A DNA stretch of 64,000 bases from Lingula anatina (Eukaryota; Animalia; Brachiopoda). Both the position numbers and the translations under genes were made by a program. Below are positions 4,024 to 59,600 of this stretch, piece after piece (the stretch's first letter is position 1; each line of letters begins with the position of its first letter). The DNA lies in contig CM120646.1 of the NCBI GenBank assembly GCA_051362555.1, positions 5,890,001 through 5,954,000 on the forward strand, in the 5' to 3' direction. Below the pieces are notes generated by a model. The model was not told where the DNA came from. It did not search any database and saw nothing but the letters and a program-made list of their open reading frames with translations.

Positions 4024-4996
4024 GTCTAAGAATAAATATTGCGTAAGATAAACCCGAGACCTAGGGCATGCGATAGCGAGCCTTTAGCTGCTCTAAATTG
4101 ACGGGAAAATTTTATCGACTTTTAGAAATAGAGCACAGTATTGTGGGTGGATTGCAAGTAGACAGCTCAGTTTTCTTTTATATGCTGAAAGTATATCAAA
4201 ATCTTACTTATACCTAGTCTTTGTCATATGTGATATGCTAAAAATAAAATCACGCAGTATTGATCCGTAACTGACCTGGAAAGTTTGCTTAGGCTCACCT
4301 GACAGCTGCGCAAAAACATGGAAGTAGTGTGATCTCAAAATATAGAAAATATTCGATGGCAGAAATCGTATCTAGGTGAAACTAGGCCGGGCGGTTGCGC
4401 ATATCAAAGAAAAGATATGAATGTGCATATGTTTGTTGAAATCAATTTATATGTAGTACATATGTATTTACGTCGGTTGCAGAAACCACGGAGAGAGTTT
4501 ATAACAAACAGTATAGATTTTCCGACTCTACACTGACGTCTACTCAATTTTTGAAGCAAATTCATCGTTTTTGTGAATTATTTTGAAGAAAAAAATTTCT
4601 TTAGATCCTTGGGACCGGAGGAAAAAGACTAGTTTATCGAATAAATTTCTCCCTTTTTTTGAGTCTCGGACGACAGCGGTAAATGACCTAAACACAACGC
4701 CGAAAAAAAAACAACTTATTTTTAGCCTAATTAAAAATGACATGCATCATATATTGTACTTCTATCATCCCGAATTACCCATAGAAAATCCAATACTTCT
4801 CCTCGTCTTTTGATTTAAATTTTTCAAAGAAGTAATATATCTAGTCGTTTGGCGACGTATTTTGCTGATCAAAATTGGTTTACATTGAAGCCGCAATTGG
4901 TTTTAGCTGATATAAGCATCGCATAGATGGATTCTACTACTGCTTTCAGACAAATGGAACTTATTTCTATTGATGTCACTCTTATACTTCATACAG

Positions 4997-25252: not shown

Positions 25253-25899
25253 ACCTGGGGTCTTCAGTTTCGTTTGCAGTCCAGAAAATAATTGTATTGA
25301 TTCTCAGTCAGCATGACAACTCTGGGCCGACAGCGAGCGAAAACGAGGTTTAAAGATGCAATTGAAGCCAATTTTTTTTTTGCCACAAAAACCGATCAAA
25401 AGCCAAGCCAACATATAATTTCAGTAGTATAATTTTGGAAATACCAAAGGAAATCTTTTCATATTATCTGGAAAAAATTAAATTTGAACGGATGTTTTCT
25501 ACCCACTTTCAAAGCAGAATATAACAGGGAGCAGAAGGGTTTCCTTATATACATAACCTATAATTAACTTTCCTACGATTTCAAATGCATTTGTCGTATC
25601 ATCTTTACTGTGCCACATGGAGTATTTCCTGCATCAAGGGCTGCTAGGGGTCCCTAGGAGCGACATATAACATTAAAAATAAACATAGAATGCCCTTATA
25701 ATATACCCAGTAGCTAGACAAAATAAACGTCGTTTTTTTTAGCAAAATCTGATGGTTTTAGCTTTTAATTATATAATACATATTTTCAACCAAATAATTT
25801 CACGGGCCATATAACAGAAAAGGCCAACTCAAAAACCTCAGCCTGGCCTGTAAGTTTCCTAGGAAGAAAGCAGAGACGGACAAAGGTCCTTGTGCCTTA

Positions 25900-26655
25900 T
25901 GCCCCTATTTCACACAGACCACGAATCCCAGGAATCGCCAGGAATTGAAAAATTTCAGGATTCGTGAGGATTCGTGAGATTTTGCCAATTTTCTGGTCTA
26001 ATTCGACACGCTCTACGATTCAGTTACGATACAGGTGCGATAGTGTTACGAATATTCGTGGGATTCGGCTGGAATCTCACGAATATTGTTCAGAAATTCA
26101 CTACGATTTTTCGGAATCGGGAGTTCGTGGCCAAAATTTTGAACAGCTCAAAATTTTTGCCATGAATTCCCGATTCATCAAGAATTGCAAGAACTGACTA
26201 CGATTATATACGAATCTGTTAAAAACTTCACGAACTGATTTCGATTCAACCACGAATCCTGAAATTTGTCAATTCATGGCCATTCGTGGGATTCGTGGTC
26301 TGTGTGAAATAGGGGCATCAAAGTTTTTGCCACTAATTCCTGTTGGTCAAGATGTGCAAGAACTGACTACGAATATATACGAATCTGTTTAGAACTTCAC
26401 GAACTGATTACGATTCAACCACGAATCCTGAAATTTGTCAATTCATGGCCATTCGTGGGATTCGTGGTCTGTGTGAAATAGGGGCATCAAAGGTTTTGCC
26501 ACTAATTCCTGTTGGTCAAGATGTGCAAGAACTGACTACGAATATATACGAATCTGTTTAGAACTTCACGAACTGATTACGATTCAACCACGAATCCTGA
26601 AATTTGTCAATTCATGGTCATTCGTGGGATTCGTGGTCTGTGTGAAATAGGGGCA
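25900..26655 (+). mobile_element. PIF/Harbinger (Tourist-like) MITE with a triplicated right end
   Basis: TIR TGCCCCTATTTCACACAGACCACGAATCCCA; right TIR repeated three times (ending at about 26317, 26486 and 26655); TTA target duplication at 25897-25899 and 26656-26658. Confidence 0.85.
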
Positions 26656-26761
26656 TTAACCATCTAAAGGAAAACACAGGGATTAGCACTCAAGGGAAAG
26701 AATGGAATGCTGAAAATGACATCATAAGTCGTCGGGGTTCGTATCGACCATGGCACCATAC

Positions 26762-27948: not shown

Positions 27949-30730
27949 ATGTCATATTACGTGCTGGTATTAACGTTAACGCTGGTGTGCCTTTCTTCTC
28001 AGACACAAGGCGAAATATGTAAGTATACTTTCAGGTCTATACGTCCAGCATTATAGATGCCCTCAGAGAAGCATTTCATCAGCTGTGTTATGTTATAAGA
28101 TTAAAATAATTTTTTTTTCCAATCAACAGCTTAATACTGAAATAAATTACCTCCAATATTTCGATGTCAAACAGAGCATCTTCATCAAGGAAGGAGGCTT
28201 TCTATGTGAAGTCATCCATATCACGAGGACTGCAGCCAATCTCAGCAGAAATGATGGTGCCATTCTCCCTGACCTATACTTGCCTTTCCTTATTCAATAG
28301 GTGGGCGGGAGGGGGGGGGGGAGGGGGGGGGGCAAGTATATCTCCTGAATGGAGGTTATTCAAAAAACATGATGTATACGCAATGTCGTGTAAAGCTGGA
28401 ACTCTACAGAACTCAATAAGCAGAAAACAAGCAACAAAATATTCCAGTACAAATTATGTCAATATGTCTTCGTCTTCCATTATTTCTGACCCGACCGCTT
28501 GATTTTACGATTATTGCAAGACTCTGGTCATTTTTTTTAAAGATTAAAATAGAAACCATCCCTTCTGAAAATTAGTTTGAACTTAAACGTTGCAGTTTGC
28601 GACCTTGATTAGACGCACTGAAACTTAGGGATAAGGATGATACAAATTAAAAAAATTAACAATGGTAAAGAAAATGGAGCATATTGTCGTAAATCCTATT
28701 TAATATCAAGGAATTAATACTCTGTTTCCGAAACCTGAGAGTGTCAAAGAATTGCGCAATAAAATTGTCTCAGATGTCAAACCTTTTATCATGTATGTCA
28801 AATAAGTCATTCCTAAATCAAAAAGTTTAATCTTTAACGCAGAGTCAATACCTTCGGGATGGTTGAACAGCGATATGGTCCATCTGAACATATCACTAAC
28901 TTATTACAGATAACGCGACAGGGTTGACACCTTTAAAAGAATTAGGAAGGGAACCAATCATTACAATGGATTTTATGACTGATAACTATTATATGACTTA
29001 AAGGGATAACAACTCTTCATTTTGGCGGGAAAAGTGCCATGAAATGGATTTCCTGGAGTAAACGACAATTTTCCCATATCTTTCAATGGTTCAAAAATCT
29101 GTTTCGAAATTCAAAAATAGTTGATTGTTTTTTTAAGTGTGGTTTTTTGTAATAATCTCTTAAAATAGATTAGTGCTGAGGGTAGCTCTTTACATAAGGT
29201 ACACGTGGTCTGATGGCATGCGCTGAGCACAGATTCCAAAATAATTATGATAACCGCCGTTTTTGGTGGCAAAGTGGAATTTATTATATTTACGTGTAGC
29301 TTGTAATATATTTATTATGGAATTTTTAAAAACTCATGTGAAAATTGTTGTCCTTTTCATATTAAATGACTGAGACATATTGGCTGACGTAGTTGCAGTC
29401 TTTTAATGGCAAGATTTTGCGATGGCTTTTGAGAACAATACTGAAATTGAAAACACAAATAACATGTAATCTGGAGATTGGATACAGGGTTGTTAAAGTA
29501 CAAGAAGCATTAATAAATCCTCGGTCTCTTTGAACAAGCAAGCAAAACAAATATACAAATTTCATAAATCAATAAACGGATTGTGTAAAGAATAATAGTA
29601 AAATATTTGTTTGATAACGAAGAGGGTTGAAACTTTTTTGGAATCCTGGACATCACGAAAAATTAAGTTTTTGATAAAACACATGATTCATCATGATGCG
29701 ATTAATTCAGTGACGGTTTAAGGGGAGAGGGGGGTCAGGGGGGTCATGATCCCCACTTTGGTTCCTGAAAAAAATTACATTAATATTCCCCTCTTAAAGT
29801 TATAATTTGGCTAGCTAAAGTACAGTACCAAACCGTCCCAAATTGCACCGTTTGTCCACCAAAACACCCGTGACAAGGAACCGAGAATCGGCTTTGCATC
29901 CGAGGCCTGCCATTCCTAAAAAGAAAAAAAAATTGAACCACTTCAAATATTCCTGGGTCCGTCCCTGGAATTGTATGCATAGACATAAGTACATGTACTA
30001 TTTCACTATTTATCAGTCACTTATTGAGCACATTTTGCTTCGAAATGATTTTGTTTAAAACCTGCTTACCTTGATAAGAAACAAAATGAAACATCACATT
30101 ACTCCCAGAAGACAAATTGATGTTTTTTATTATCTGATGAAAACAGATGTACAACGAGGAATAAACGATTTCCGTCTACTTCCAGACTACGCCGATAGTG
30201 CATATGACTGTTCCTCCGACCAAAAGTACGTGTTTACCTACTCATCAACAACTTTAGAAGCTTGGTCCAGTGGCATACGATCAAAAACCAACTCCTCTTG
30301 TGTCATCCATTTCTACACAGGGGTTTCCAGTGACGTCGTCAAAGTCATAAGTAACTTTATGGACATACCATGTTCTTCGGAAGCGTACTTGACTTTCTAC
30401 GATGGTCCATCAACAAATTCGAGGCTGGTGCGTTCTTCCTTTTTTGCTAAATGCTTTATAAGGACTTACGAACATTTTTCTAGCGGTTTCTGTTGTGGGT
30501 CTTGTACGAAAGATCGTTCAACAAAGCCGCTCTTTTTTTCATATTAAGATGGAATATTTGGTGATAGATATCTGTTGTACATGTAAGATATACCATTACA
30601 GTCTCCAGCATTTTAATAACTATTTAACTTTCTTTACATGTATTTTTGAATGTCAGTTTATATTTGAAGCGTGTTGTGATGGTGCCGGAATAGAATCATT
30701 AAAGAGACATTACATGTTTTAATGCAAAAT

Positions 30731-34280: not shown

Positions 34281-34810
34281 ATGGCGGGGGATGGTGGTAA
34301 AACGCATTTAATTAATGAGGATCACAGTGATCACAGTGACAGTGATGAGGATAAGTTCGGAAGCAGTGTGAATGTCTCAGCTGAAGATAATCTCCCAGCC
34401 AAATATGTCTACCCAGGTCAGCCTGTAAGCGGTGTATTTCCGCCAGTTCCCTCTGATGCCACAACGACCGCGGGGCCGGATCAACATTTCACCCCCGTCT
34501 ACTACAAGAGGCGATGGTATATTGTTTTTGTTTATTGTGTGTTTTCGTTAATTCAGTCAGTGATCTGGAATACATGGGGCCCCATTACTGTAAGCGCCGA
34601 ATATGTCTTTGGCTGGGAGGATTGGACTATAGACTTACTGTCTAACTGGGGACCGATCTCGTACTTGTTGACGTCGTTAGGGTTCACGTGGATCATGGAT
34701 GAGAAAGGTAAACTAAGGTGAAAGTGAAAAAAGCGGTGGAAAAAACAAGTGCACATGTATACCCATGTGTCTTATGTTTGCATTCTTAATCTTTTTGTTC
34801 TTCCATATGT

Positions 34811-34843
<33 letters not shown>

Positions 34844-35850
34844 GTTTCTCTTTCTTCTGTTGTTTCATTATTTATGTTAATTTTAGCGTTGGTTTGTAGT
34901 AATGTCACTTTCAGTCCCGATTGCCTGGGATCGTCAAAATGACTCGATCACAGTCTGTTAATATTATATAAACTAATCTTGTATGTAACCCAATCCCATT
35001 CCATATCTTATAAACGAATATCCTGTCTACGCTATCTAGACAATCATTAAACAATTTTTCTTGCATAGTTGGAAAGGAAACATATAATGAAAAACGGAAT
35101 CTAATTAATGTTAGGTCGTGTTTTATTTAGGACTACGTTGGGCTTGTCTTGCCTCTGCTTTTGCCGTAGCAGTGGGCGCCGCCTTGCGGTGTATAACAAT
35201 GGAACCAAAGTCAGCAACATGGTCAGTGACCTTTTTTTATTTTTCCTTAATTATTTGATGAAAACATAGCTATCAAATGTTTATAGTGTGTCGCAATAAT
35301 TTATGAATTTAAAAAAGGAAGAGACAGAATACGCGAGGACTAATGGGCTTTGTTTAGCAGACGACAGAAGGCTGGGGAGACAATGCGTTGTCACACCTCG
35401 TACATGAAACAACTAACACAATTACCTGAGCACATATATTTCATTATTTTAGCATGCACTCCAGTTTTGTTTATAAATTATTGTGAAAGTACTTATTTAA
35501 TGAAATAGAAACACAAAAGTATGCGTAAAAGATGCGTAATCTGTGGAAAAGGGGGAGATAATAAAATGGGCTTGAAAATCGAATATAGGCCTAGATAATT
35601 TTAATTATTGTCTTGGCAGAGGCGTGAGCTCTCTGCGTGCTCTTCTGGGGTCAGAAAACATATTATAATTATTTCTGATTAATTCCCATGCTCTTGCAAA
35701 TTTTTTATTGAAAGCATTTTAGTGTTTATTATTCAGTTTTTGATTATCTTAGCCTTGTCACTTTTCAATATATAGTTTTAGATTGTTTATAGTTTTATGT
35801 ATGTATACGGTATGTACTCACCACTCTGAGGTGGTAAATAAATAAACAAA

Positions 35851-35895
<45 letters not shown>

Positions 35896-38800
35896 CAGGT
35901 TCATTCACTCTGGCCAGTTCTTGAACGGCATGGGGTCCACGGTGGGCAGCATGGCCGGACCCCTGATTTCCAACACATGGTTCCCCTTGTCTCAGCGCAC
36001 CACTGTGACTACCATTACTTCAATGTTCACTGTACTCGGTGCCGCCGCGGGATTCCTAATAGGTACGTGACTGGCGACAAACAGATTGTTTTGCTTTGAA
36101 ATTCAAATACCGTGGTCGTTGTAATAGTGTGCTTCTCTTTTGGTTAGGGCATCGTAAGCTCATTCCTTTAACATTTAAACAATTCGATTCGACAGGAAAA
36201 AGTTGAAAATACTATTTTTATTTATCATTTATTTTTTATATTTTCAGACAGAATTCTTCTTAAATGTCGAAATGTCGGCATTTCTGGTGTCGAAATTGTC
36301 ATAAAATATAATTTAAGATGTACCTCTGGCACCAACATCTTATCAAAACAATATGCGGTGTCGGTACTAAAATGTGCCATTAATATTCTAGGTCCATTTA
36401 TCGTCCGAGACCCTAAATCTAATACCAGTTCTAACGCCACTGTGAACCAGACATGGTCAGTATGCTTTATGGGTAATATCGTGCCAGTCAGATTGTTAGG
36501 AATTGAAATAGCTGATATTCTGCCTGAAATGCATTAAATTTTGTTATTTTTGTGTATATGCATGAAGCTGTTTCTGTACAATTAACTTAGTTAAATTACA
36601 ATTCACAATTAAAATCTCCCACCCAAGAAGTTGAGATCGCTTCAAGATTGACAAAATCCACGATAAACAGAAAACCGGTGTAACGTTAACGAAACTGAGG
36701 GTCCAAATATGTAAGGTTAGCCTGACCTAGTTGGGTCAATCTCTAGGGCGAGGCTTACCTGTACAAATGAATTATCTCTATCGTGGGGGAATCTCTGTCA
36801 CGTTACACCGGGCTGATCGCGTGTATCGAGGATATCAAACTGATTTTTAAATGCATTGTATAACGTTACCTTTTTACTGCTCACAAATCACTCCCACTAT
36901 GTCTCTACATGTTTTCATTGCAGTAATTTAACGAGAGAAGAGGTGGCGGAAGACATACACAAGCTAATGTATATAGGTAACGGGTTGATTCATTTCATTC
37001 TGATTTCACACTGAGGAAGTCCTTTAAACGTGGAAATGTGTGTGCGTGTGCACGCTCGCGCACGAGTGTGAGGGTCCACGGGATCTCGTACATATTAGCA
37101 AAAACATAAATAAAATATAAGGAGTGAAATGAAAAAAATACTAATACCGGAGCGACCATCGCTCAAATTTTAAGATTTAAATTCTAAGCTCAGATGAACA
37201 GCCCTAGAGGGCGATATGTAAATGCGGTCTCTCGGGTGGAATCTCTCCCGTGTATAATTCCGCCTTTAACTCGCATTCACATTGTCGGGGACATTTAATA
37301 ATTCATAGACAATGTCAGTAATATTAAGTAATAACTTTAATTGTAAACGGTAATTCTCTATAATACATTATGTCAATTCTGAAGAGGCTGAGTAAGGCTT
37401 GTTTACCAGTCTCATTAAGAAGCCAGTGATAAGGAAGTGCATGAAGCCATTGGCTGGAGTACATACTAAAGGGTGTAATAGTGAATAGAGAGGCAGAATG
37501 TACCTGAGCAGGCAACGAGTTCACATTAAAAGTTTGAAACAGGTTATTATTGTCAGAGTAGGATTTCCTTCTCACAGGGGTGGAGAAGTTCTTAAGGGTG
37601 TTCCCCACAACATGTTGTCTCCAGAGGACGAGTAGACAACAAAGTCATCGTAACAAAGAGACCTTTTTTCCCTGTGCAGTTACACTACTTGGTCGTCTTT
37701 TAGAACAGAATGTGAATAGAGCATGGCCAAACAGGCATCTAATTATTCACATTGTCCATGTTTCAGAGGCTGGGATCGCAGTGGCAGTATTCTTAGCCAT
37801 AATTGTATACTTTCCCGCCAAACCACCCACGCCTCCCAGCGTGACCGCTGCTGAAACCAGAACAAGTTACTTCTCTGGACTGCTGGCGTTAGTCAAGTAT
37901 GATTCCCTTCTTTCTTTGATGTCATGCAAATGCAATATAAGACTACCAAGAATACCCATAATCACTCGAGTACAATAGGCCTTTGTTAATTTGTTAGTAT
38001 TAAAAAGAACGTTATTATTATGCTCTAGTCGCTAGTCTCTTCGTGTAAGAAGTCATATTTTCAATATTTTCTACTACGTGCTATACAATTTTAATGACTT
38101 GAAATTGGGTAACTGTACCTAAGTTGTATAACGTAAGTTGGTTGTGGTACAATGCAGGTCCTTAAGTTCGACAAATAATATATAGATGGGCAAACAAATG
38201 ATTAAATAAGTTGAAAAATAAATGAATGAACACAAATAAGTGCACCAATAAACTGACAAACAAATATTTAAATAAAAAAATCCTGGCAGCGTTGATGGGA
38301 GCATTATCAATTTAACTTCTGTGTTTACCAGAATGTGAATGGGATTCTCGCCTTTTAACTACTCTTCTGTAGTGCTCTTCACGTAAACATGTCTAATGTA
38401 AAACTCCAGAATACGGCCCCAGATCCTTAACGAGAGGCAGTGCCATACTGTCGGATTTAGGGTGTCATGAGTCACTATTTTACTTTCCCTCCGTTAAACT
38501 CCCAGTGGAAGAAATCAGTACGTAAGTCGCGATTGATTCAAAGACGCATGTACACGCGCGTATGAAAAAGGTCCGCGTGTGTTCGTATCATACAGTATTC
38601 AACAAGATTTGAACCTACTACAAAACCAATGAAGCTTGTTGATAATTCATTTCGGTCTTTCTATCTTTCGCTGCGACGTATCTTGACAGTGAAAACAGGG
38701 GAATGCGAGATCAAAGCTTTCTCCATTTATTAGATTGTCTTTTTATTGGTCTATTCAGTTGTATTCATTCATTTATATATCAGTTTATTTTTTCATTTAA

Positions 38801-39284
38801 ATACTCCTCTATAAGTTATTTGTAAAAAAAATAATTGATAACATAGTACGAACCATCCTCTCAAATTATACAGCTGAAATACAGTTACACATTGTGAAGT
38901 CATAAAAAATGTAAAACACGTAGCAGACAATGATTAAAATATGGCTTCTTGCACGTAGAGGCTAGCGGGTGCAAAACAGTAATGTACTTTTAAATTTTAA
39001 CAAATGAAAATGTCGGGTGGCTAAAACACTACTTATTTTAAAGTCCAATTACTTCAACAGTTTTGAAGATACTGTTATGAAATTTGAGATGTTTAAGGAA
39101 AGTGATGTTTCATATTTACTTTGCCATCTATTAAAAATCCCAGTTGAAGAAATCAGTGCGTGCGTGTAAGTCGTGATTAATTCAAAGATACATACGCTAA
39201 CGAAAAATAGTCCGCAGTGCGTGTGTTCGCACGATATTTTGCTTTGAACTTGCTACAGAATCAATAAAACTATTTTGGATCATT

Positions 39285-39327
<43 letters not shown>

Positions 39328-41960
39328 CCTTGTATTTTGGCATAGAAAACAAGGTGAATGAGGGAAGTGCCCTAGGCCTGTCTAAGCACTGTTTGGGCGT
39401 ACATAAAACCCCGCCGTGTACCATTTAAAGGTACTTTATCGAAGACTATCCCGGCAAATCGAATTTTCTGCGAGCAAAAATAATTTTTCTCACTCATGAA
39501 TCATTGATTGGCCTCTCCTTGCAGTAAGATTGGGCATATATATATCATTGCTTTATATCATTATTTGTTAATGAAACAGTTTGAAAATCATATTTTCCCT
39601 CATTGTATTGTTGAAAGATTTGTGTTGCGTCTCCCCTGTCCATGTTTCAGAAAACCCCAGGTGTGGCTTATTGCCACCCCATACGGCCTCTCGGGTGTTT
39701 ATGCCACGTGGAGCTCCGTACTGGGTGTGAACCTTCGGCACCACTCTGATGTGTCTGAGGTAGGACAGTGTTATTCACATATACATCATAATTTATATTA
39801 ATTATGGTTTTGATTTATTGAAAAACAGTGAGATAACTTATTTGATGCGTTAAACAGTATTTTTGAGTTTACAAGTTGATTACTCAGACTCAACGCGGGC
39901 CAAAGTCTGTAGAATTTGATTGAAGTTCAGTTGTGTACGATAGGTTGAGCTATTATATAAACATTGCATGCTATTCAAAGAAACAACTCACTCTGAACTG
40001 CTTTCTATCTGTCTAATATTTTAGAAAGATGCAGCATTTCTTGGTTTTTGGAGCATGATTGCAGGTGTGGTTTTTGCTGTGATTCTAGCAAGGTATTCGA
40101 TTGTGTTTCAGTTCACAAACCTATTGTCTCAGTCGTTCCCAAAAGGCTTCATTTAGTTTCTATTTACCTTGCGAACCGTTTATTTATAACATCTTCACTT
40201 TTAAAATCATATCTAATCACTAGGTCGTCCCATCTGCCATTGTTATTGATTTAGGGCGTTTGTTGTGCCAGTCTGTCAAGCACACATTTTATAGAGATAG
40301 CATTGTATAAGATTTAAAGCAATATGGACTAGTAGCTGATCTGATCTGCTGGTTGACTAAAAGCGCCGCATGCGGTTTACTACGTATTTTCACTTCCACA
40401 GGTTCGCAGACGTTTTCGTGGGGCACTTGAAGGTTCTGGTGTTGGCTTTGTTGGTTCTCGCCACGGCCGCCTTCGCATGGTTTGCGGTGCTCTTAAAGTT
40501 TGTCGATTTTCACACGCCTGGGTGGAAAGGTGAGAACAACATTTTTGGTAGAATTTTATATACATTCATTTTTGCTGCTGTGGTAAATGCAGAATCTTGA
40601 AGGAATACCGAGTTCATTCAGAGTATTATTACGGGAAGGGTATTCATAGTAGGTTTTTGAATCATCAGAACCAAAAATTAATGGAAACCCGACTGCGGCC
40701 ATGACTTTAACAGTGAAATGAATTGTTTTTAACCAATTTCCAATCTAAAGTAGTTTAGACGTTAACTTTGCCACAGATGTGTAACGTCACATTTCTTTTT
40801 TTTTAGTCATGATTTATGCCGCCATAATTCTTGGAGGCATGTTCCAGTTAGGTTTCCCGTGTCTTTGTTTTGAGTTGGCGTGTGAAGCAAGCTATCCCGT
40901 GGCCGAGGGGATCACCACTACATTTCTAGGGATAATAAACAATATATTTGCCGGTGCCTTTCTACTCATTTTCATGTTTATTCCGGACGGTGAGTTTATC
41001 GTTAATTTTATATGAAAAATGGATATTCTGTTTGCGTGATTTGTGCACTGTAAGTTGTAAAACGCCGGGACTCTATTTACCGTCTAAACGCCATGTTGGA
41101 ATCAACGGCCATGTTGATGCTCCTCAGAGACTAACATGTACTCCTAATCACAAATGTACATTGAAAGAGATCGTTTACATTGTGTCTTCTTTATAAAACC
41201 CGTTGTTATTGATTATAGTTAATTTCGTTCCTAATTAAAGGGATAGCAACCTTTTTTGTCGGGGAAGTGCCGTGAAACGCATATTCTAGGGGATAAATGA
41301 CGATGGTCCCATGCTTATCAATGGTTGGTGAATCCCTTCCCACATTCGAAGTTAGTCGATTATTTTTAAGTGTGTTTTTGGTAATAATCTCTTAAGATTA
41401 TATTACGGGGGTGAATCATCTATGAATGTCCACAACTTTCATTAAAAATTATTTTGGTGATAAAATTGAATTTTTTATATTCCAATGTGATGTTTACAAT
41501 ACATTTGTTGTGGAATTTTGAATCTAATGAAGCGTTGTTATCCCCTTAAGCCATGAAAATGCCGTGAAAATGCCATCACTCTCATTCTCTCTATTATATA
41601 GCTTGGATTATGACCTGGTGTTAGCAAGTTTAATCGAATAGTTGGCTAAAACTCTTAAAGAATCAATATAGTGTCTAACGTGTTACTCGTAAGAAGTGTT
41701 TGATATCGGAGATAGGAAGATCGTTAAATTATCATTTAGTTATATAATTATTATATTATTGCCTGTCAAATGCTAGATTTTCTTTGCAATTGCCTCCTCT
41801 AATTTCAGACAAAGAGTACATGAACTGGGCGATGGTCGCCTCGGTTGCTCTCGGAGTACCTGCCACGTGTCTGTACAAGGAGCGATATAGCAGGCTGCTA
41901 CTGGACACTCAGCGTTCAGTGGACAGTGGTCAGCGGAGTGACCACGATAATGAAAGCTAA
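34281..41960 (+). CDS. SLC49A4: MFS transporter, SLC49 family (SLC49A4/DIRC2-like), 522 aa. Exons 34281-34707, 35131-35221, 35899-36062, 36392-36455, 36924-36976, 37767-37896, 39651-39759, 40025-40092, 40402-40529, 40807-40989, 41809-41960
   Basis: Family motifs VYYKRRW, WNTWGPI, LLSNWGPI, MDEKGLR, GQFLNG..SNTWFP..QRTT, YFPAKPPTPPS, FELACEASYPVAEG and a C-terminal Y.RL..D; 1569 nt in frame. Confidence 0.9.
36674..36811. mobile_element. Small TIR element in an SLC49 intron
   Basis: Inverted termini CCGGTGTAACGT and ACGTTACACCGG. Confidence 0.5.
38500..39360. repeat. Diverged direct duplication (about 38500-38705 and 39139-39360) within an intron
   Basis: CCCAGT(G/T)GAAGAAATCAGT..GTAAGTCG..ATTCAAAGA..GTCCGC..GTGTTCG..GAAAACA occurs twice. 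Confidence 0.7.
41235..41549. mobile_element. Intact family-2 MITE flanked by TTAA (Kolobok/piggyBac-type target site)
   Basis: TTAA-AGGGATAGCAAC ... GTTGTTATCCCC-TTAA. Confidence 0.75.
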
Positions 41961-43866: not shown

Positions 43867-44231
43867 TTTGATGTTTTTTTTAGTTTAACCCTTGGATGGT
43901 CTGAAACAACAAGCTAATTGTTATCGAATCAAAACAATGCCGCTGTAACACATTTGGCTGTTAGACCAGTCATTAATGCGAACGCCGATTGTTAATCAGC
44001 TAGCACAAAAAGAAAAAAAAAAAAAGATGAGAGCATTGTGGGCCGATTTACCTCGACGGTGGTATGACAAATGAATTGGCACTCACCCAGAAGGATAAAA
44101 GAAAAGAAGCATTGAACACGGTACCTTGCACACTTTTTCCAACAAGGAAATAGTTTGTAAATCTGTCCCATAATTCTTTTCAAAAGTTGCATAAAAGAAA
44201 TTAAGAATCCGTGGCACGCATCTTTGTTGAC

Positions 44232-44238
44232 TATAAAA
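44232..44238 (+). promoter_or_regulatory. TATA box of the Cys/Arg-rich peptide gene
   Basis: TATAAAA 63 nt upstream of the ATG. Confidence 0.6.
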
Positions 44239-44294
44239 AGAGATTTCCAAACAACGTTACTCCATCGCTTGCGAGGTTCATTTGAAAGATCGCA

Positions 44295-45575
44295 ATGGCT
44301 AACGTCAAAGTATTGATTATTGCCTTGTTCCTGCTGGCTGCCGTGGGCGTGGCCACTTCCTGCTATTCCTGTCGCGGTGGCAGTCTCCGTAAGTATAATC
44401 ATGGTTTCTGTTCACACTGCATGTTAACGGGGGACGTCAGATACCCAATTGACAGGGTTTTGGTTCATACTGTTCGCATATTGATTTTCAGCTTTTTCAG
44501 TATTCACATTGTTTAGATACTGGTCATTATTAATTTGGAGGGGGTTAGGGGTGGAGGAGAAAATGGCTGTGATCCCCCCAAATAAATTCGGGAACACTCC
44601 TGATAGTATTCAAATTTTTTCGGGACCCAACTTCCGGATTGATTGAAAAATTCAGCCCCCATCCTCAATGAAAATATCAGAACAGCGTTCAGAAGTAAAT
44701 TATCTAAAAACATGGCATAAAAAGTATTTCAAAAACACTCCACTCATGAGGGTACTTTAATGAAATATTTTATGTACAAATTGAAAGATTTTACAAAAAA
44801 AAAAAAAAAAAAAAACGTTGTTAAATACTCTGTTCAATGTAGGCACTCTATAATAAGACAGGATTTAACTGTAGATACTCAACAGTGCAGAATTTATTCT
44901 ATTCATTCTTATGAAAGAACACTAGAAGCATGAAAAGAAAGTTGAAATATAACATGGAGTTTAATCAGATTTTTTGACATTTTTTACATACATGTATTCT
45001 AGTGAGGTATATGATACAATGGTACACACACTGGACAATAGAAGGGTCACCCCCTAAATCAGAGTAATCAAAGTTATTAACCTGAAGAGGCGGAATATAA
45101 GAGATGTCAGAATATCGATACAGTTGAATTGTTCAGTCAGAACCGTTTCTTTTGTGAAATTTGATGTTAATAAAATGATACCAGGAGCATATCATTCCAC
45201 AGTCATTTATCTCCCCCAAAGTATTGGTTAAGTAGGGGTGACACTTCCATTGTCCAGTGTGTGTATATATAAATCATAGAGATGCATTAAAGCAGGTCAA
45301 TGCTAAACATCCCAAAAGAAAAAAAGTTGGAAAGATAATTGAATTAATTCAGGTGTGTATATGTCAATGTAAAGGTATATATGTCAATGTAAAGGTATAT
45401 ATGCCTTGTTTTCCTTTAATTTCAAGGTGGAGGGTACTTGCGATGCGGCTTAAGAAACCCGTGCCGCAACGTGCATTGCAGACGCGGATACAGTTGCGTG
45501 TAAGGAAAAAACAGCTGCTTGCAGCTTCTATGCTAAATCAGATAAATGACGAAATTGCTCTACAGTCATAGTGAT

Positions 45576-45611
<36 letters not shown>

Positions 45612-45902
45612 AGTATGTGTACGTTCGTTTGGATATGGAAAGTGAAAATCACCCTCTCTCTCTCTCTCTAATCTGAAATAACATTACGATAATGTGGAGC
45701 TCTTCTTTTCCAAGTTCCCTTATTTGGCAAAAGACATTTGGGTGATTTTGGTACATTTGTTTGTGCAATTTATGTACTGTTTTTTTCTGCTTCCAATGCC
45801 ATGCTGACACTCAGCTTGAATTTATTCTCTGACATTTTCAGGCACGGTTGCGCATGCAGAGCTGTCTGCAGGAGGCGCAGGGGTTGCTATTATTACGGAT
45901 AA
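44295..45902 (+). CDS. Secreted cationic cysteine-rich peptide precursor, 75 aa. Exons 44295-44388, 45427-45499, 45842-45902
   Basis: MANVKVLIIALFLLAAVGVATS + CYSCRGGSLRGGYLRCGLRNPCRNVHCRRGYSCVHGCACRAVCRRRRGCYYYG*; GT-AG introns in phases 1 and 2; 228 nt; TATA upstream; AATAAA at 46074. Confidence 0.88.
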
Positions 45903-46459
45903 TCCGATTCAAACCCTTGGCTACCTTCGATGCAACCAAACTGCAACGGAATTTGCTTCACCCAAGTCATTTGCATGACTTTGATGCTTTACCTCTTTTT
46001 CCTATTGAATGATTATACAAAACAGACTTAAGTGTTTACGTTATTTCGGCCTACCGGTTGCACAATGTAGTCTAATAAAGCAACGCATGAAAATATTTAA
46101 TGTGCTATGTTGTCATTGCAAGTATTATGGGGTTCGCTTAAGACTGCGGGGAAATAATATTCGGTCCTTGTGCCTAGAATAAATTTATGAATAAACAAAC
46201 AAAAACAAACAAACAAACAAACAAACAAACAAACAAACAAACAAACAAATAAATAAATAAAGTTGCCGTATCTTGAGATTTGATTAGTTTATTGGAACCT
46301 CAACATATTTACAAAAATGCAACTGTAAGAACTGACCAATATTCAGCGGCATATTCTTATACATACATACATACGCTCAATTCTGGATAGTTTTTGTCTC
46401 TCATTTTCGCATTGTTGGCGTTTTTAACTGGTAATTTCTGATACGAACCTTACTATATT

Positions 46460-50258: not shown

Positions 50259-51351
50259 TTATGTTTCTACACAGGGAGTAAACGCACTGACACACGTCTT
50301 GCTCTCGGCGCAAAAGCGTGTAAAACTTCTGCATTCATCCGCGGTGCAGTTCTTTTCGTCCGAAATGTCCGTAGCTGGGCAGTCCGGTGACCCGTTACAA
50401 CGCTTGTCAACAGCTATGCACGTGGACGATACCTCACACGCGAAGGAACCCAGGTGACATGTCCCGTCCGAGCAAGCATTTGTCGTCTTCACACAGCGGC
50501 GGTCAGAAGGGCAATAGCGTACCTCCGCCCAGGTCTGGCATTGCTCCGGGAGGCAATCCTTCTCGTCGGAACCATCCTGACATGTATTAGTGCCGTCACA
50601 GCGGTGTTCCATGGGAACGCACGTGTTTCCAGTTTCGCAGCCAAAGTGACCATCGGGACAAGGCTTTTCGGTACAGGGGCGTCTCACATCCACACACGTG
50701 GAGTTCGGAATACAGGGGACATCAGCCGTGTGGCATTCTGAAAATAAACACAATAAGATTCTTTGAAGGCAAAGGCTGAGGTGAAAACTGTGGTGAGAAA
50801 CATACCTTATGAGACAATAATAATAGCTTTCTCCTAATGTCCAGTGTCAACATAATATGGTGCAATTAGAACTGCATTCAAAACGATGTATCAGAACTTA
50901 TCTGCCATTGAAACAAATACTAGTCACGATGTAAAACCAACGCCACCGCAATAAGTAGCCATAGTAAGAAAATCAGATCTTTATTATTTGTTTTACATCT
51001 TATTTTGTTTTGATGTTTTAAACAAGTCAAAATAAAATCACATTTTACCAATAAATCACAAAATCTGATTGACGTTGGTACAAATTATAAAAGTGGTGCA
51101 CTGTTCCATTACTTTGACGAGTACCTGTTAAGTACTATTAACTATTAAGTAGCTATTCCCACTTTGTCTCAGTCTTTCATGACTTATAATACAGTTTTGA
51201 AGAACCTATGCTTACCTGGTTGAATTACAAATGTGGCTGGTTTCCCGTGGACATGGAAGCACACCAAAACTATAACAACTAAAGCAGGTAAAGAATATGA
51301 ACTACAGTTTGCGCCAAAATCTCGGTGAAGATCTTTCGTCACCATGGTCAT
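50259..51351 (-). CDS. Small secreted (or signal-anchored) LDL-receptor class A repeat protein, 204 aa. Exons 51351-51216, 50737-50259
   Basis: Exon 1 has the hydrophobic stretch LPALVVIVLVCFHVHG; exon 2 has two LDLa repeats (C..F.C...CV....CDG...CQDGSDEKDC and ..CNGSPDC...ISDEKNC); phase-1 intron; 615 nt. Confidence 0.85.
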
Positions 51352-53676: not shown

Positions 53677-56600
53677 TCACTTCAAACTTTGGACCCGAGT
53701 TGTACTGACACGCCCTTGCTTTGTTGTCTTGAGGAACTTTCCACCAACAACCGCCCCAACGGCCTCGATCACATGCAGCAGAGTCAGAACACTAGCCCCA
53801 ATAAACAAACCCATCTGGCCTCCTATGTCGCCTGGAAAATAAAAAGTAAGTGAAGGTGAAGGTCGAAGCGTTTTAATACTTAGTTGAATGGCGTGGTTGG
53901 CGCTTTAGTAATTGCTAGTGCCTGTATGATACCTAATGTATCCGTGAAGTGTTGTACATGTACTGTGTTCGATCAGGGACATGTCACTCAAGATAATTTA
54001 AGTCAAAGGTCGGTAATAATTTAAAGACTTACAATTAAACATTCTACATAATTTAAGTCAAAAGTCTGTCTTAATTCAAAGAATAAAAAATCAAGGCCTG
54101 CTTGACCATTGAGATATCAGTATATTCATTTGTATACTGCAATGGGATCTTTCTGGGTTCACTGATATTTTTGGTCTTTAAGTTAAAAACAAACTCTTGA
54201 GCTGTTAATGTGTTGAACGATTTTAGACTAAAATTCTAATCCTGATGATTACAACTGGAAGCATATCAACATCGACGATCTCTTAAATGACTGGCAATTG
54301 AAATAAGTGATGGTTTTACTAACTAAGCAGTGCTGGTATGGAATATGCTTTGATTTGTCTGATGGTCTCATAGCACAGCTCTTCGTAATAGATGTTCAGC
54401 ACCAGCAGGTTATCTCTGCTGAAAATAGAAACTAATTGTAGTTACAGTAAATGTCAATTAACAATTAATACTAATTTTTTCAAATTGTTACTAACCATTA
54501 TTTCTTTCTTAAAACATATCAATTCTTTTCAATGCAACAAGTAATAATAAAATTATAATAAACGTTTTGCGGGTTTCACCATCAAAATTCAAAGATGTGC
54601 TTTTATATAACATTATCCATTGGTGATATTTGTCTTATTTATCGGTTGGATAATTATAAAACATTGTTTTGAACTCAATCTGAAATACTGTATCTCTAAT
54701 ATAACAAGAATTTAACGAAAATCAGGATATTAATTCATAATAACGGTTCTACCTTTGGAGCTCAGTTTCACTTTCGACTTAAAGCATTCTCGCACGCTGT
54801 CTCTCTCTCTCTCACACACACAAATACGCACACGCTCTTGCGATCAAAGAAATTAGATAACCTTAGTGTTTCCCGTTTAACTTGCGGGTTATTTTCGGCT
54901 ATGATATCTAAGGTAGTATCTCGAAGCCTTACGGAAGAGATGTCTCGCCTATAAGTGGTCATATCACATGGATTCTGACAGGAGCACAAGTCTGAGTGCT
55001 CCACTTCCTCTGAAACAACAGGGTAATAATAATAATAATAATAATAATAATTATTATTATAATGATGATAGTAATAATAATAATGCTTATGATAATGAGA
55101 AAATAGCAAAATGGTATTTCAGCCTCACTATATGTAGGTAAATATACAATAAGATCAACATTCGTCTGATCGCATTTGAAAAACTGTGGTGCCAGTTTAA
55201 GACTTATCCGCAACGCTTTGCGCACTTTCTTCCAGAATGAGGGAAGCATGTCGCAAGTAAACTGAGGTTGTGAGAAGCTATAAAAAATCCAACATTGCCA
55301 GTGCTAGATATAATATGCATGTAGACGTTTATTTTTTACTTAACCTACCTAAGGCTGGATAGGCACATCCCATGTACATGTGTCCTAGACATACGGATGT
55401 GTTGCCTGTAATGATGTATACTGATGTAATGAAATGTATAATACGGTCTCATGTACGGCTTACAAATTGCTCTTTCTCTAGTATAAATATAAAACATGCA
55501 ATTGCCGAGTACAAAAAAGCTATTTACACAGCCGTTATGAAAACCATTTAAATGAGTGTACAAGTGTATATACACAGGTTCATTACAAACCATCTGAAAA
55601 ATAGAGAGAGAGAGAGAGAGAGAGAGAGGAGGAGAATGAGAGAGAGGGAGGGAAGAAGAGAGAGAAAGGGAAGTAAGGAGAGGGAGACAGAAAAAGAAAT
55701 AGAGGGAGGGAGGGAGCTAGGGAGAGAGAGAACGATAAAAGCAAGGAAGGAGAGAGAGAGAGAGAGAGTGGGTGGGGGGAATCACCTGGCATTTCGGCCA
55801 GCTTGCAGCCACACTCTTTTACGATGGTATCTGTTTCACACTCTATCCTACAGGCAGGGACGCTATAATGAGAGTAATATTTGAGTTTCCCTTCGTAGCA
55901 GTTTCCCCATGGAGGAACCAAGTTGTGAACCTGTAATACAGAACCATGTCATTTAATTGTTATTTACTAGGTGGCAGTGCCAGATTTTCGTAAGAGTCGG
56001 AGATCCTGATACATGGATGAGCATAACAATATTGGGACGCACAAGATATTCTCAAACAAATTGCCATTAGGTTCATTTGACAATAACGGAATAAAAATAA
56101 TTTTTCAACAAGCTGTCCAACCTTCTGTTTGTTATCACGATATCAGCTAATAATGGCCGTTGACATATCAAAAATGTAAAAAGACATTATGTAATTCTGA
56201 TTAAAGTTCTTAAATCCTACGTATTTCTTCTGTATAGCGATAAAATGGTGGTCCCCCGGTAGCACTCCAAATCCCAACTCCTTCACAAATGGAGGCTCCT
56301 CCTGAGCGTGAATAACCATCTTCAGTCCTTTACAAGAAAAAATATACAAGGGTTAAGAATTTATTCAGCCAAAAGATCAGAAATCATTTTCCTTTGCAGC
56401 AAAGTAAGATTAATGCAGAAAGAAAAAGTAATACAATAAATACATTAAGAATTAGGTTAAAAAACAAATTCAACTGCATAACTGCACTCGGATAAAAAAA
56501 ACTGTGTAAAGGCGTTTACTTCCTTTGAAGGTTAAGATTCTACATGGCACATCTCACGTACTTAAAGCGTACGGTAATTTTTCTACTTTTTGCACGAAGT

Positions 56601-59600
56601 ATTAACCCTGTCACATAGTAATTTTGACTCACTAGCTTTTATGAATGCAACACGGAATTTACAAAATTCAAAGTTACTTAGTCAATTAAACTAAAGAGTG
56701 AGCAGTAGCGTTTAGTGAATTTTCGTGTTTTTCATAGGACAATATTCATCGAATTAACATTTTTATCCATCGATGTATCCGGATTATAAAACCTACCAGC
56801 ATCTTGCCCTGCTAGGACATCCGAAGTCAAATACTCCTCTTCTTCGATGTTGATATATAACTTCAACCCGTTCCCCGCCCCCGCCTTTCGTGATACGTAT
56901 TTATAAGAGTGGTCAGCATTGAAAGTATAACAGATGCCAAAATGAGTGAAAACCGAGGTAAAGTTCTCCGGACCACAGTGCTGCCCTTTCCACGAACACA
57001 GCAGTATCATGTCTTCTAGCTGGTGGCCGGTTCGACGTATAAATTCAAGCACGTCAAAATTTTCTGAAAGTTAAACCGAAAGTCCATTATGCTACGACCA
57101 GATAACTTTTAAACAAAACTGCAATGAATAATGTAGGGTACTAAGTAACCAGAATGATCAACGTAATTTGATAAGTATTTCTTTATTGAACAGATTTTAA
57201 AACTTATAACACCCATGGCGTAGTTCATTTTATAAGAAAATAAAACCATATTCTAGATTTATAAGTATACTGACAGTCAATGAAAACGCATCATTTATTT
57301 AGCAAATAATATTTTAAGTTCCTTTGGCACATTAAGAAATAACAGTTTTCGTGTGAAATATGTGAAATATGAAATACTGGTCAGCCCACTCTCTTATGAC
57401 CAAACAAGAACTCCAAATTTCAAAATATGAAATATAACAAAATCGCAGCAATATGCCTCCGTATGAATCTGTGCTTGTATTTTGCAAAAGTAAAAAGAAT
57501 ATCTACCTTCGTCATCGTTGGCAGCTAACTCTGTCCAATTAATACCGTGTACCCAATCCACCCAGCTCTGGTTGTAATATTCTGGGTGTATAAGGCGGCG
57601 GTTTTCATCTAAAATGTGCAGTTTTTCACCAAAATGTAATATATCAACGTCTGTCAAAGCGGATAGTCTATAGGAGTTCATGTTGCATATGGTAACGGCT
57701 GGAAACTCTGCAACAAATAAAGAATTTGTTGATTATTCGATGGTATAAAAACCAGTGCTTTTTTGCACGATCGTTCCATTCCGTTAATTTTCACGTTTTG
57801 CACGAACCATGTGACGGTCAGGTGAAACAAAACAAAAGCAAGGTCATTTAGATTTTTTTTGGAAAAAATTGCCAGGGGATTGAAGCAAATAAGCATATAT
57901 TACGTTTTTACAATGTTCAGCTGAGTATGGTTTGGCAAATGACATATCAATGTTTTTCTCATAGCTTCGCAAGCACCAGGTTCGACACTTGGGCATCATC
58001 AATATCAATCTCTGGACATGTGTACGTAGGCCTATATATAAGAGTTATTTTCCCATGCTTAGGCCTACACATGATCAACATCGTGTTGTTTCTTTTGAAA
58101 AACAATACATTAGAAATAATGGCTGCTACTAGTATCTTACTTATGTGAATTTTAATTCACATTAAAAGAAATAATATGAATTTGCGGCAGTCGGCGATAT
58201 GATCGCATACAGACGGGATATTGCACCCTCTTCCCTTCCACTGTGAAATACCCCCATACTAGTGCAATGTACTCCTATTTCACACAGACCACGAATCCCA
58301 CGAATGGCGATGAATTGACAAATTTCACGATTCGTGGTTGAATCCTAATCAGTTCGTGAAGTTCTTAACAGATTCGTATATATTCGTAGTCAGTTCTTGC
58401 ACTTCTTGACCAACAGGAATGGGTGGCAAAAACTTTGATGCCACTATTTCACACAGACCACGAATCCCACGAATCGCCAGGAATTGAAAATTTGGTTGAA
58501 TCGTAATCAGTTCGTGAAGTTCTTAACAGATTCGTATATAATCGTAGTAAGTTATTGCAATTCTTGATCAATCGGGAATTCGTGGCAAAAAAATTGAGCT
58601 GTTCACAGTTTTGGCCACGAACTCCCAATTCCAAAAACTCGTAGTGAATTTCTAGACAATATTCGTGCGATTCCAGCCGAATCCCACGAATATTCGTAAC
58701 ACTATCGCACCTGTATCATAACTGAATCGTAGAGCTTGTCGAATTAGACCAGAAAATTGGCAAAATCTCACGATTCCAGCCGAATCCCACGAATATTCGT
58801 AACACTATCGTACCTGTATCGTAAGTGAATCGTGAGCGTGTCGAATAAGACCAGAAAATTGGCAAAATCTCACGAATCCTCACGAATCCTAAAATTTGTC
58901 AATTCCTGGCGATTCGTGGGATTCGTGGTCTGTGTGAAATAGGGGCCTTACAGAGTAAATGCTGTCAAAAAAAAAAAAAAAAAAAAAGCGTTTGCCGTAA
59001 TGGGGAGCATCCATGATAGTGACACACAAAACAATTCGTGTACGTACAACAGATTATAATTCGACAGGACTTAAGGGAAACGACCACACAGTATCTGTCT
59101 ATAAATTATGTCGACTTTTATTCCTTGTTGCACCCCAGTTGATAGTCTGACAATATTTTGGACCCCGTTCTCCTCAAAATACTGAGAAATCTCAAATAAT
59201 TTTACGCTACGTCACCAGACTTTGCACTAGTTACATTGCTTTCAGGTTTCTTAGACGACATAAGCTGCACATAGAGAGTTTCAAACTCAACTGTCGCTGA
59301 AAAAGTACGCAGCCCCACGCAGATTCTCGCAAGTTTTATAGTCTCGTATGACGTCACGTTCGTAACGTCCACAGTCTCGTTTTGAGGCTATTTTCATTGG
59401 AAAGTGATAACACAGAGCGAGAGATTTAACATATGTTTCCGAACATCAGCCGTTAAACGGTTGTCAGTTTAAATGGAGGGAAACAAGCCTTATAATTGCA
59501 TCGATTGTTCACCCGTATACAAGTTGTGTCTGAAATGGTTGTTAAATCAATATTTTCGTAGTGACATCTGCCACTTAGGAAGAATATTGTTGTTATTTCC

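What the first reader, a model, noticed from the sequence alone, without database searches (positions are those of the whole stretch)
44295..45902. Three-exon gene for a 10-Cys, 12-Arg, probably amidated secreted peptide (candidate new antimicrobial peptide type)
Seen: splicing three short exons that the ORF track does not join gives a signal peptide of about 22 aa and a 53-aa mature peptide. It has 10 Cys, 12 Arg, no Asp or Glu, and ends in YYYG-stop. A TATA box and polyA signal are present. Known: a C-terminal Gly is the substrate for PAM amidation, and NPCRNVHCRRGYSC fits the follistatin-N/FOLN motif (C-x4-C-x5-C). As far as I can judge, the Cys spacing does not fit CS-alpha-beta defensins, mytilins or big defensins. 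Inference: a stand-alone FOLN-like module used as a strongly cationic host-defence peptide or toxin. A role as a shell, cuticle or egg-coat matrix peptide is an alternative.
Basis: partly seen in the sequence, partly recalled or inferred. Interest (0 to 1): 0.85.

Follow-up and report, generated by a model that had tools for sequence, protein, structure and literature searches.

The report
Lamp-shell five-disulfide cationic peptide gene
A small, transcribed three-exon gene of a lamp shell (brachiopod, Lingula) encodes a predicted secreted, very positively charged peptide with ten cysteines spaced unlike the antimicrobial peptide families checked; it is likely a defence peptide of a new build, but its fold and activity are untested.

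Summary
The gene is real. Exons 44295-44388, 45427-45499 and 45842-45902 splice (GT-AG) to 75 aa: a hydrophobic leader of about 22 aa, then 53 aa with 10 Cys, 12 Arg, no Asp/Glu and a terminal Gly. RNA reads join exon 1 to exon 2 (4 reads, 2 of 7 runs laid). Depth steps fit one read across junction 2. The reads are about 6% divergent, with 6 silent and 3 conservative changes (pN/pS about 0.2). The neighbouring transporter is 506/522 identical to Lingula anatina, so the host is a lingulid brachiopod. No relative was found, but only single exons could be searched. Exon 2 weakly resembles FOLN/CREMP/RhTx hairpin modules (E 0.03-1); exon 3 weakly resembles the arginine turn of androctonin (E 0.23). 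The Cys spacing 2-11-5-4-5-3-1-3-5 fails CS-alpha-beta, mytilin, big defensin, CRP-I and strict FOLN arrays. Best reading: an amidated host-defence peptide on a compact EGF-like core (0.5). Rivals: matrix/adhesive peptide, signalling ligand, protease inhibitor. Fold, processing and activity are untested.

The parts
44232..44238 (+). TATA box
   Evidence: Only TATAWAW match in 44150-44295; 27 nt before the initiator-like A
44257..44263 (+). Initiator-like element (YYANWYY), inferred start of transcription
   Evidence: Only match in 44240-44295; the most 5' RNA read starts at about 44282
44295..44388 (+). Coding exon 1: leader plus first 9 residues of the mature peptide with the Cys-x2-Cys pair; phase-1 donor
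   Evidence: RNA depth and joint 44388>45427
44295..44360 (+). Predicted signal peptide, residues 1-22 (cut site could be 18, 20 or 22)
   Evidence: Kyte-Doolittle 9-residue mean up to 3.4; cut site from the recalled (-3,-1) rule
44389..45426 (+). Intron 1, 1038 nt, GT..AG
   Evidence: Joint table
45022..45265 (.). Dispersed repeat inside intron 1 (not part of the mRNA)
   Evidence: Most of the 113-269 reads laid per run fall here and run on into unrelated sequence
45427..45499 (+). Coding exon 2: four Cys spaced x5, x4, x5; phase-2 donor
45456..45497 (+). FOLN/CREMP/RhTx-like start of an EGF-type hairpin (Asn-Pro-Cys-x4-Cys-xx-Gly-xx-Cys)
   Evidence: PDB phmmer E 0.034, 0.24, 0.99; pattern in 0 of 200000 shuffles, chosen after the fact
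45500..45841 (+). Intron 2, 342 nt, GT..AG, with CTGAC at 45804 and 45829
   Evidence: Zero RNA depth in 45510-45839 (a repeat at 45568-45620 skipped); depth arithmetic
45842..45902 (+). Coding exon 3: four Cys, five Arg, terminal Gly, stop
45867..45893 (+). Cys-x5-Cys arginine loop followed by two Tyr, like the turn of androctonin
   Evidence: 8 of 9 residues identical in the alignment, E 0.23, not significant
45897..45899 (+). Terminal Gly codon, predicted amide donor
   Evidence: Sequence; amidation inferred; a PHM gene is listed for Lingula (PMC4595640 supplement)
46074..46079 (+). AATAAA, likely polyadenylation signal
   Evidence: reads reach only about 45986, so the 3' end is not shown

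Best explanation
This is a real, transcribed brachiopod gene for a predicted secreted 53-residue, arginine-rich, ten-cysteine peptide that likely acts as a host-defence (antimicrobial) peptide. Shown: gene structure, splicing of intron 1, composition, an excess of silent changes. Inferred: the leader sends it into the secretory path and is cut off; PAM would turn the terminal Gly into a Tyr-amide; five disulfides would form, most likely a compact EGF-like core (mature Cys22-33 and Cys27-37 as the 1-3/2-4 hairpin, as in CREMP) with the Arg4-Gly loop either closed by Cys43-49 as in androctonin or by Cys39-49 as in EGF, and the N-terminal Cys1, 4 and 16 clamping the rest. The rigid peptide, charge about +12 with six Tyr and few aliphatic residues, would bind anionic microbial surfaces (LPS, teichoic acids, anionic lipids) and permeabilise or disturb the membrane, with low amphiphilicity like androctonin.
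For: Precursor is just leader plus cationic Cys-rich peptide with no acidic residue, the usual build of invertebrate defence peptides (general knowledge; mytilin example in PMC7168163 passages). Best PDB match of exon 3 is the antimicrobial peptide androctonin and the second is the antimicrobial EcAMP1. PMC4410394 (passages) says androctonin's RRRGG motif also occurs in scorpion defensins, that it has charge +8 and about 30% hydrophobic residues and still disrupts bacterial membranes; this peptide has 14 of 53 hydrophobic or aromatic residues. C-terminal amidation is common in Arg-rich hairpin peptides. Spliced transcripts exist and the frame is under constraint: 6 silent, 3 conservative changes in 150 nt, none at Cys or Arg, p 0.012-0.028. 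None of the 14 novel Lingula shell matrix proteins is shorter than 103 aa.
Against: No activity, tissue or induction data. Both structural likenesses are statistically weak (E 0.034-8.3) and cationic Cys-rich pieces match each other by composition. The best match of exon 2 is a structural eggshell-membrane protein, and such modules are typical of matrix proteins (PMC12723725 passages). Expression is very low: exon reads in 2 of 7 runs laid, roughly 0.4-1.6 FPKM, whereas defence peptides are often abundant (recalled). No paralogue in the 64 kb window and purifying rather than diversifying change, unlike the clustered, positively selected mussel CRP-I family. No strict NF-kB-type site within the locus: the 7 matches in the window all lie before 21.8 kb. 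No gamma-core pattern (pattern recalled). No anionic propiece to mask the charge.
Confidence: 0.5

Rival explanations
1. A structural or adhesive matrix peptide (periostracum, chaetae, pedicle glue, egg coat): a small Gly/Arg/Tyr/Cys-rich unit that would be cross-linked through Tyr/DOPA and Cys, or bind chitin or phosphate mineral.
For: Gly+Arg+Tyr are 27 of 53 residues. Cx4Cx5C hairpin modules build eggshell membrane, Dumpy, midge silk and octopus egg threads (PMC12723725). Many novel Lingula shell proteins are basic, and PHM itself is in the shell fraction (PMC4595640 supplement).
Against: Those matrix proteins are long tandem repeats; this is one module. No 75-aa entry among the 14 novel shell proteins, and none under 100 aa in the part of Table 25 seen, but that proteome was searched against gene models that may lack this gene. 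Very low expression in the runs laid (tissues unknown).
Confidence: 0.2
2. A secreted signalling ligand or neurohormone: an amidated EGF-like peptide, possibly cut at the Arg-Arg or Arg4 sites into disulfide-linked chains, acting on a receptor or channel.
For: Low expression, purifying selection, no neighbour paralogue, terminal Gly, dibasic sites at mature 28-29 and 44-47, loose EGF-like spacing in 92 of 200000 shuffles.
Against: Charge of +12 with no acidic residue is unusual for peptide hormones (recalled); no Pfam hit on any exon piece at E up to 10; no relative in molluscs or annelids surfaced (low sensitivity).
Confidence: 0.15
3. A small disulfide-rich serine-protease inhibitor of the antistasin/hirustasin type, or an ion-channel-active toxin like RhTx.
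For: Size and 10 Cys, and the run C-x4-C-x5-C-x3-C-x-C resembles the recalled N-terminal subdomain of hirustasin (pattern from memory). RhTx is a 27-aa two-disulfide peptide with the same start motif.
Against: The recalled antistasin C-terminal pattern is not met. RhTx match E 0.24. Brachiopods have no known venom system (recalled).
Confidence: 0.1

Closest known systems
CREMP / follistatin-N (FOLN) two-disulfide EGF-like hairpin modules (PDB 9PGB, SPARC 2V53; PMC12723725)
   Same: Cx4Cx5C with Pro before the first Cys and Gly in the second loop. In CREMP the module pairs Cys1-3 and Cys2-4 over a small beta hairpin.
   Different: Fourth Cys after 3 residues, not 8; single module, not tandem repeats; six further Cys; strongly cationic, free peptide.
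Androctonin (scorpion haemolymph beta-hairpin antimicrobial peptide, PDB 1CZ6; PMC4410394)
   Same: Cys-Arg-Arg-Arg-x-Gly-Cys-Tyr-Tyr stretch, high positive charge, low hydrophobic content.
   Different: Androctonin is 25 aa with 4 Cys; this is 53 aa with 10 Cys and lacks the outer Cys after the tyrosines. E 0.23; convergence is as likely as kinship.
RhTx (centipede TRPV1 toxin, PDB 2MVA; PMC4589873)
   Same: A free secreted peptide built on the same Asn-Pro-Cys-x4-Cys-xx-Gly-xx-Cys start; shows that this module is used alone as a bioactive peptide.
   Different: 27 aa, two disulfides, cut from a longer precursor, venom component; E 0.24.
Molluscan Cys-rich cationic defence peptides (mytilins, CRP-I, big defensins)
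   Same: Leader plus cationic Cys-rich peptide in a lophotrochozoan; big defensins occur in rhynchonelliform brachiopods (PMC7203481).
   Different: Different Cys arrays; no anionic C-terminal extension, no propeptide, no hydrophobic N-terminal domain, no adjacent Cys-Cys; mature peptide spread over three exons.

Membership tests
CS-alpha-beta defensins and mytilins | CxxxC helix motif followed later by CxC; mytilin array C3C3C4C11C1C1C2C | tested here: not met
   CxxxC...CxC in that order absent; spacing is 2-11-5-4-5-3-1-3-5; mytilin array from PMC7168163; general CS-alpha-beta motif recalled
Mytilins | Anionic C-terminal extension after the mature peptide | tested here: not met
   Stop follows the Gly; no Asp/Glu in the mature part (feature)
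Big defensins / beta-defensins | Hydrophobic N-terminal region plus six-Cys C-terminal domain (with terminal Cys-Cys, recalled) | tested here: not met
   No adjacent Cys pair, 10 Cys spread over the chain, no hydrophobic region after the leader (feature)
Mussel CRP-I / knottins | C-C-CC-C-C array and propeptide | tested here: not met
   No Cys-Cys (array from PMC10138031)
Beta-hairpin antimicrobial peptides (androctonin, tachyplesin, gomesin) | Single hairpin of 11-25 aa closed by disulfides | tested here: not met
   53 aa, 10 Cys (class limits from PMC13001179)
Beta-hairpin antimicrobial peptides (androctonin, tachyplesin, gomesin) | Arg-rich turn flanked by Cys and aromatic residues | tested here: inconclusive
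   Motif present; E 0.23 against PDB; pattern in 4 of 200000 shuffles, chosen after the fact
FOLN / CREMP module | Cx4Cx5C start with conserved Pro and Gly | tested here: met
FOLN / CREMP module | Fourth Cys about 8 residues after the third, no Cys between | tested here: not met
   Next Cys after 3 residues
FOLN / CREMP module | Pfam FOLN score above cut-off | tested here: inconclusive
   No hit on single exons at E up to 10; intron 2 cuts the module and the spliced peptide was not scanned
EGF-like / EB-type six-Cys domain | C..C..C..CxC..C spacing | tested here: inconclusive
   A loose recalled pattern fits mature Cys22-49, with an extra Cys in the last loop
EGF-like / EB-type six-Cys domain | 1-3, 2-4, 5-6 disulfides and EGF fold | not tested
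   No model of the spliced peptide was made
Antistasin / hirustasin | C-terminal subdomain spacing with long loop and terminal C-x3-C-x-C | tested here: not met
   Pattern from memory, no match
Other 10-Cys peptides (tachycitin/CBM14, theromacin-type macins, Ly6/three-finger) | Family Cys array or Pfam domain | tested here: inconclusive
   No Pfam hit on exon pieces; arrays compared by recall only and did not fit; tachycitin named as 10-Cys in PMC12466427
Antimicrobial peptides (functional class) | Kills or inhibits microbes | not testable with these tools
   Needs MIC assays

The most novel reading that the evidence does not exclude
Founding member of a new five-disulfide antimicrobial peptide family from brachiopods, in which a shortened EGF/FOLN hairpin carries an androctonin-like arginine loop and is clamped by an N-terminal Cys-x2-Cys arm: an EGF-type scaffold turned into an amidated antibiotic in a phylum for which the papers searched describe no tested peptide.
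Probability: 0.3. Interest if true: 0.72.

Novelty: new variant of a known kind. Interest (0 to 1): 0.5.

Why it matters
Brachiopods live buried in microbe-rich sediment (recalled), yet their defence peptides are almost unstudied: PMC7203481 calls the information on minor lophotrochozoan phyla very fragmentary and cites only big defensins in rhynchonelliforms, and two reviews of marine invertebrate antimicrobial peptides never mention brachiopods (text searches). The gene seems to be missing from annotated protein sets although its neighbour is present. If active, it adds a new disulfide framework and a possible case of an EGF-type module recruited to immunity; a 53-residue peptide is cheap to make and test. 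If it is a matrix peptide, it bears on phosphate shell or chaeta building. Orphan cationic Cys-rich peptides are common in invertebrate genomes, which caps the surprise.

Tried and rejected
No whole genome is held, so paralogues outside the window are unknown; tblastn within the window found only the three exons. The look-up of sequencing runs: no RNA holder listed; 9 runs added by species label; 7 of 9 were laid, at 6-30% of their reads; X2, X5 and X8 were laid only on exons 2-3 and gave 0 reads (no test); X1 and X4 gave no exon reads. Homologue searches used single exon frames: exon 1 plus read-through, residues 1-40, 1 candidate, none at E up to 10, lengths 40-128; exon 3 frame, no candidate, lengths 26-86; 1.84 billion representatives with the exon 3 frame, 3 hits, all bacterial-type repeat proteins matching the intron-derived part, spurious; ESM Atlas, no usable hit for exon 3 or exon 1; PDB, none for exon 1. 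Exon 2 was too short for these large searches. These blanks are weak evidence of novelty. Alternative donor 45497 (94-aa product, odd Cys count) rejected by depth fit. Unspliced read-through of exon 1 rejected: no reads in the start of intron 1. My first guess of a deuterostome host was wrong. Mirror-image Cys ladder: spacing not symmetric overall. Earlier scan notes: nothing for this genome or sequence; the 8 word matches are other genes. A first count of 5 silent/4 replacement changes misplaced one site by a base; corrected to 6/3. The search for RhTx with follistatin returned only follistatin papers. Gerdol et al. 2018 on the Lingula immune genes (PMID 29278680) is not held and was not seen; it may list this or similar peptides.

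Full report
Observation. Of the GT-AG choices near the boundaries, two keep a frame, and 44388/45427 with 45499/45842 gives 75 aa ending in three Tyr, Gly and a stop. After a hydrophobic leader (9-residue hydropathy up to 3.4) come 53 aa with 12 Arg, 10 Cys, 9 Gly, 6 Tyr and no acidic residue; pI 9.8, charge about +12, 6.06 kDa, Cys spacing 2-11-5-4-5-3-1-3-5. A TATA box (44232), an initiator-like element 27 nt downstream, an in-frame stop before the ATG and branch-like CTGAC sites in intron 2 are present, with AATAAA at 46074. The leader's cut site (18, 20 or 22) was judged by a recalled rule only.

Transcription. No indexed run was listed as an RNA holder; nine raw RNA runs were added by species label and seven were laid, each read to 6-30%. 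Junction 44388>45427 (GT..AG) is shown by 3 reads in X7 and 1 in X9; X1 and X4 gave no exon reads. On exons 2-3, X7 gave 7 reads and X2, X5, X8 none. Junction 2 is below the tool's listing floor, but four hand-fitted reads reproduce 13 of 13 tested depth bins if one read leaves exon 2 at 45499 and resumes at 45842; the alternative donor 45497 misses two bins. Expression is about 0.4-1.6 FPKM by a rough count; tissues are unknown.

Constraint. The reads are mostly 90-95% alike to the window. Over about 150 coding bases they show 9 differences: 6 silent and 3 conservative (Val/Ile, Leu/Val, Leu/Phe), none at Cys or Arg; pN/pS 0.18-0.22, binomial p 0.012-0.028 by transition weight (one silent site comes from the loose-end line; 56 rows were not shown, but the per-read difference counts agree with nine). 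The reads may come from a divergent population or from a paralogue. The first is plausible: the neighbouring transporter differs from the NCBI Lingula anatina protein at 16 of 522 residues, and passages of PMC8146825 describe deep divergence and a likely cryptic species within L. anatina, well above the 1.6% heterozygosity given in PMC4595640.

Host and neighbourhood. The upstream gene (34281-41957) is an SLC49A4/DIRC2-like transporter whose best hit is L. anatina at 96% over exon 1, the next best 59% or less. The window is therefore from a lingulid brachiopod. Downstream lie an LDLa-repeat exon and an ASIC-type channel gene on the minus strand. No paralogue of the peptide is in the window; no genome was available. 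No strict NF-kB-type site is near the gene.

Relatives. Only single exons could be searched. Nothing was found in 5.8 billion proteins, 1.84 billion representatives (3 spurious hits on the intron-derived part), the ESM Atlas, Pfam or earlier scan notes. A near-identical annotated orthologue of 40-128 aa should have appeared, so the gene is probably unannotated; distant relatives would have been missed. In PDB, exon 2 gave three weak hits, all to the same kind of module: CREMP (E 0.034), RhTx (0.24), SPARC's follistatin-N part (0.99). Exon 3 gave two weak hits, both antimicrobial peptides: androctonin (0.23; 8 of 9 residues identical across the Cys-x5-Cys arginine loop and two Tyr) and EcAMP1 (8.3). 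Exon 1 gave none. In 200000 shuffles of the mature peptide the FOLN-like start pattern arose 0 times with the Asn/Asp and 33 times without, the androctonin-like pattern 4 times, a compact EGF-like six-Cys pattern 92 times; all were chosen after seeing the sequence, so they overstate significance.

Likely build and action (inferred). PMC12723725 (passages) shows that Cx4Cx5Cx8C modules pair Cys1-3 and Cys2-4 over a small beta hairpin, are a truncated EGF, and tolerate other spacings (Dumpy Cx5Cx5Cx4C). Here the spacing is Cx4Cx5Cx3C followed by xC, which would make a tighter hairpin of that type. The Arg4-Gly loop could be closed by the two Cys that flank it, as in androctonin, or lie in the third EGF loop. 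The three N-terminal Cys would pair with what remains. No model was made, so the pairing is open. The terminal Gly fits PAM amidation (established pathway); a PHM gene is listed among Lingula shell proteins (supplement part 9 of PMC4595640). A rigid +12 peptide with tyrosines and few aliphatic residues would bind anionic microbial envelopes; PMC4410394 (passages) reports that androctonin, +8 and about 30% hydrophobic, disrupts bacterial membranes without lysing red cells. I give this defence reading 0.5.

Rivals. Matrix or adhesive peptide (0.2): half the residues are Gly, Arg or Tyr, the module type builds egg coats and silks, and many novel Lingula shell proteins are basic; but none of the 14 novel ones is under 103 aa, with the caveat that an unannotated gene could not be found by that proteome. 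Signalling ligand (0.15): low expression, constraint, apparent single copy, amide donor and polybasic sites. Protease inhibitor or channel toxin (0.1): partial likeness to the recalled hirustasin subdomain and to RhTx (passages of PMC4589873), the antistasin C-terminal pattern not met.

Membership. It fails the arrays of mytilins (PMC7168163 passages), CRP-I knottins (PMC10138031 passages), big defensins (PMC7203481 passages), the size limit of beta-hairpin peptides (PMC13001179 passages) and the strict CREMP/FOLN spacing. It may work like androctonin-type Arg-rich disulfide peptides without being a member.

In print. Searches for Lingula or brachiopod with antimicrobial peptide, defensin, cysteine-rich peptide or antimicrobial (listings of 30 of 74, 30 of 62, 15 of 17 and 40 of 45 papers) and for ten-cysteine or EGF-like cationic peptides showed no title or abstract on such a peptide. 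Term searches in two marine reviews found no mention of brachiopods (PMC10608444; PMC12466427). The key paper, Gerdol et al. 2018 on the Lingula immune repertoire, is not held; I saw only its citation, so novelty within Lingula is not settled.

Verdict. A real, spliced, constrained and apparently unannotated brachiopod gene for a secreted cationic ten-cysteine peptide with an unassigned Cys framework.

Noticed in passing
window 4916-5934, about 15210-15400, about 23580-23770 (+): At least three exons for single-pass membrane proteins with a Cys- and Arg-rich stretch after the helix (weak CYYR1/Shisa-like Pfam matches, E 0.012 and 0.13, below cut-off); the first has a predicted leader and a His-rich outer part. 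Possibly a tandem family; a Shisa-domain protein is among the novel Lingula shell proteins.
   Followed up: partly
window 34281-41957 (+): SLC49A4/DIRC2-like MFS transporter, about 11 coding exons, 506 of 522 residues identical to the Lingula anatina protein P0001.
   Followed up: yes
window about 53706-57732 (-): ASIC/DEG-ENaC channel gene, several exons with Pfam ASC matches.
   Followed up: no
window 50288-50737 (-): Cys-rich exon with two LDL-receptor class A matches, each followed by a further Cys-rich unit; rest of the gene not located.
   Followed up: no
window 45022-45265: Dispersed repeat in intron 1 that draws over a hundred RNA reads per run from other loci, so it is common in transcribed regions.
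   Followed up: partly
window 25899-26661 and 58274-58953: Repeat family with 169-nt tandem units and internal inverted arms, present twice in opposite orientation at 91-97% identity; looks like a MITE or satellite-bearing transposon.
   Followed up: no
window 30059-30547 (+): Open frame that reads like part of a CUB-type domain (by eye); no Pfam hit.
   Followed up: no
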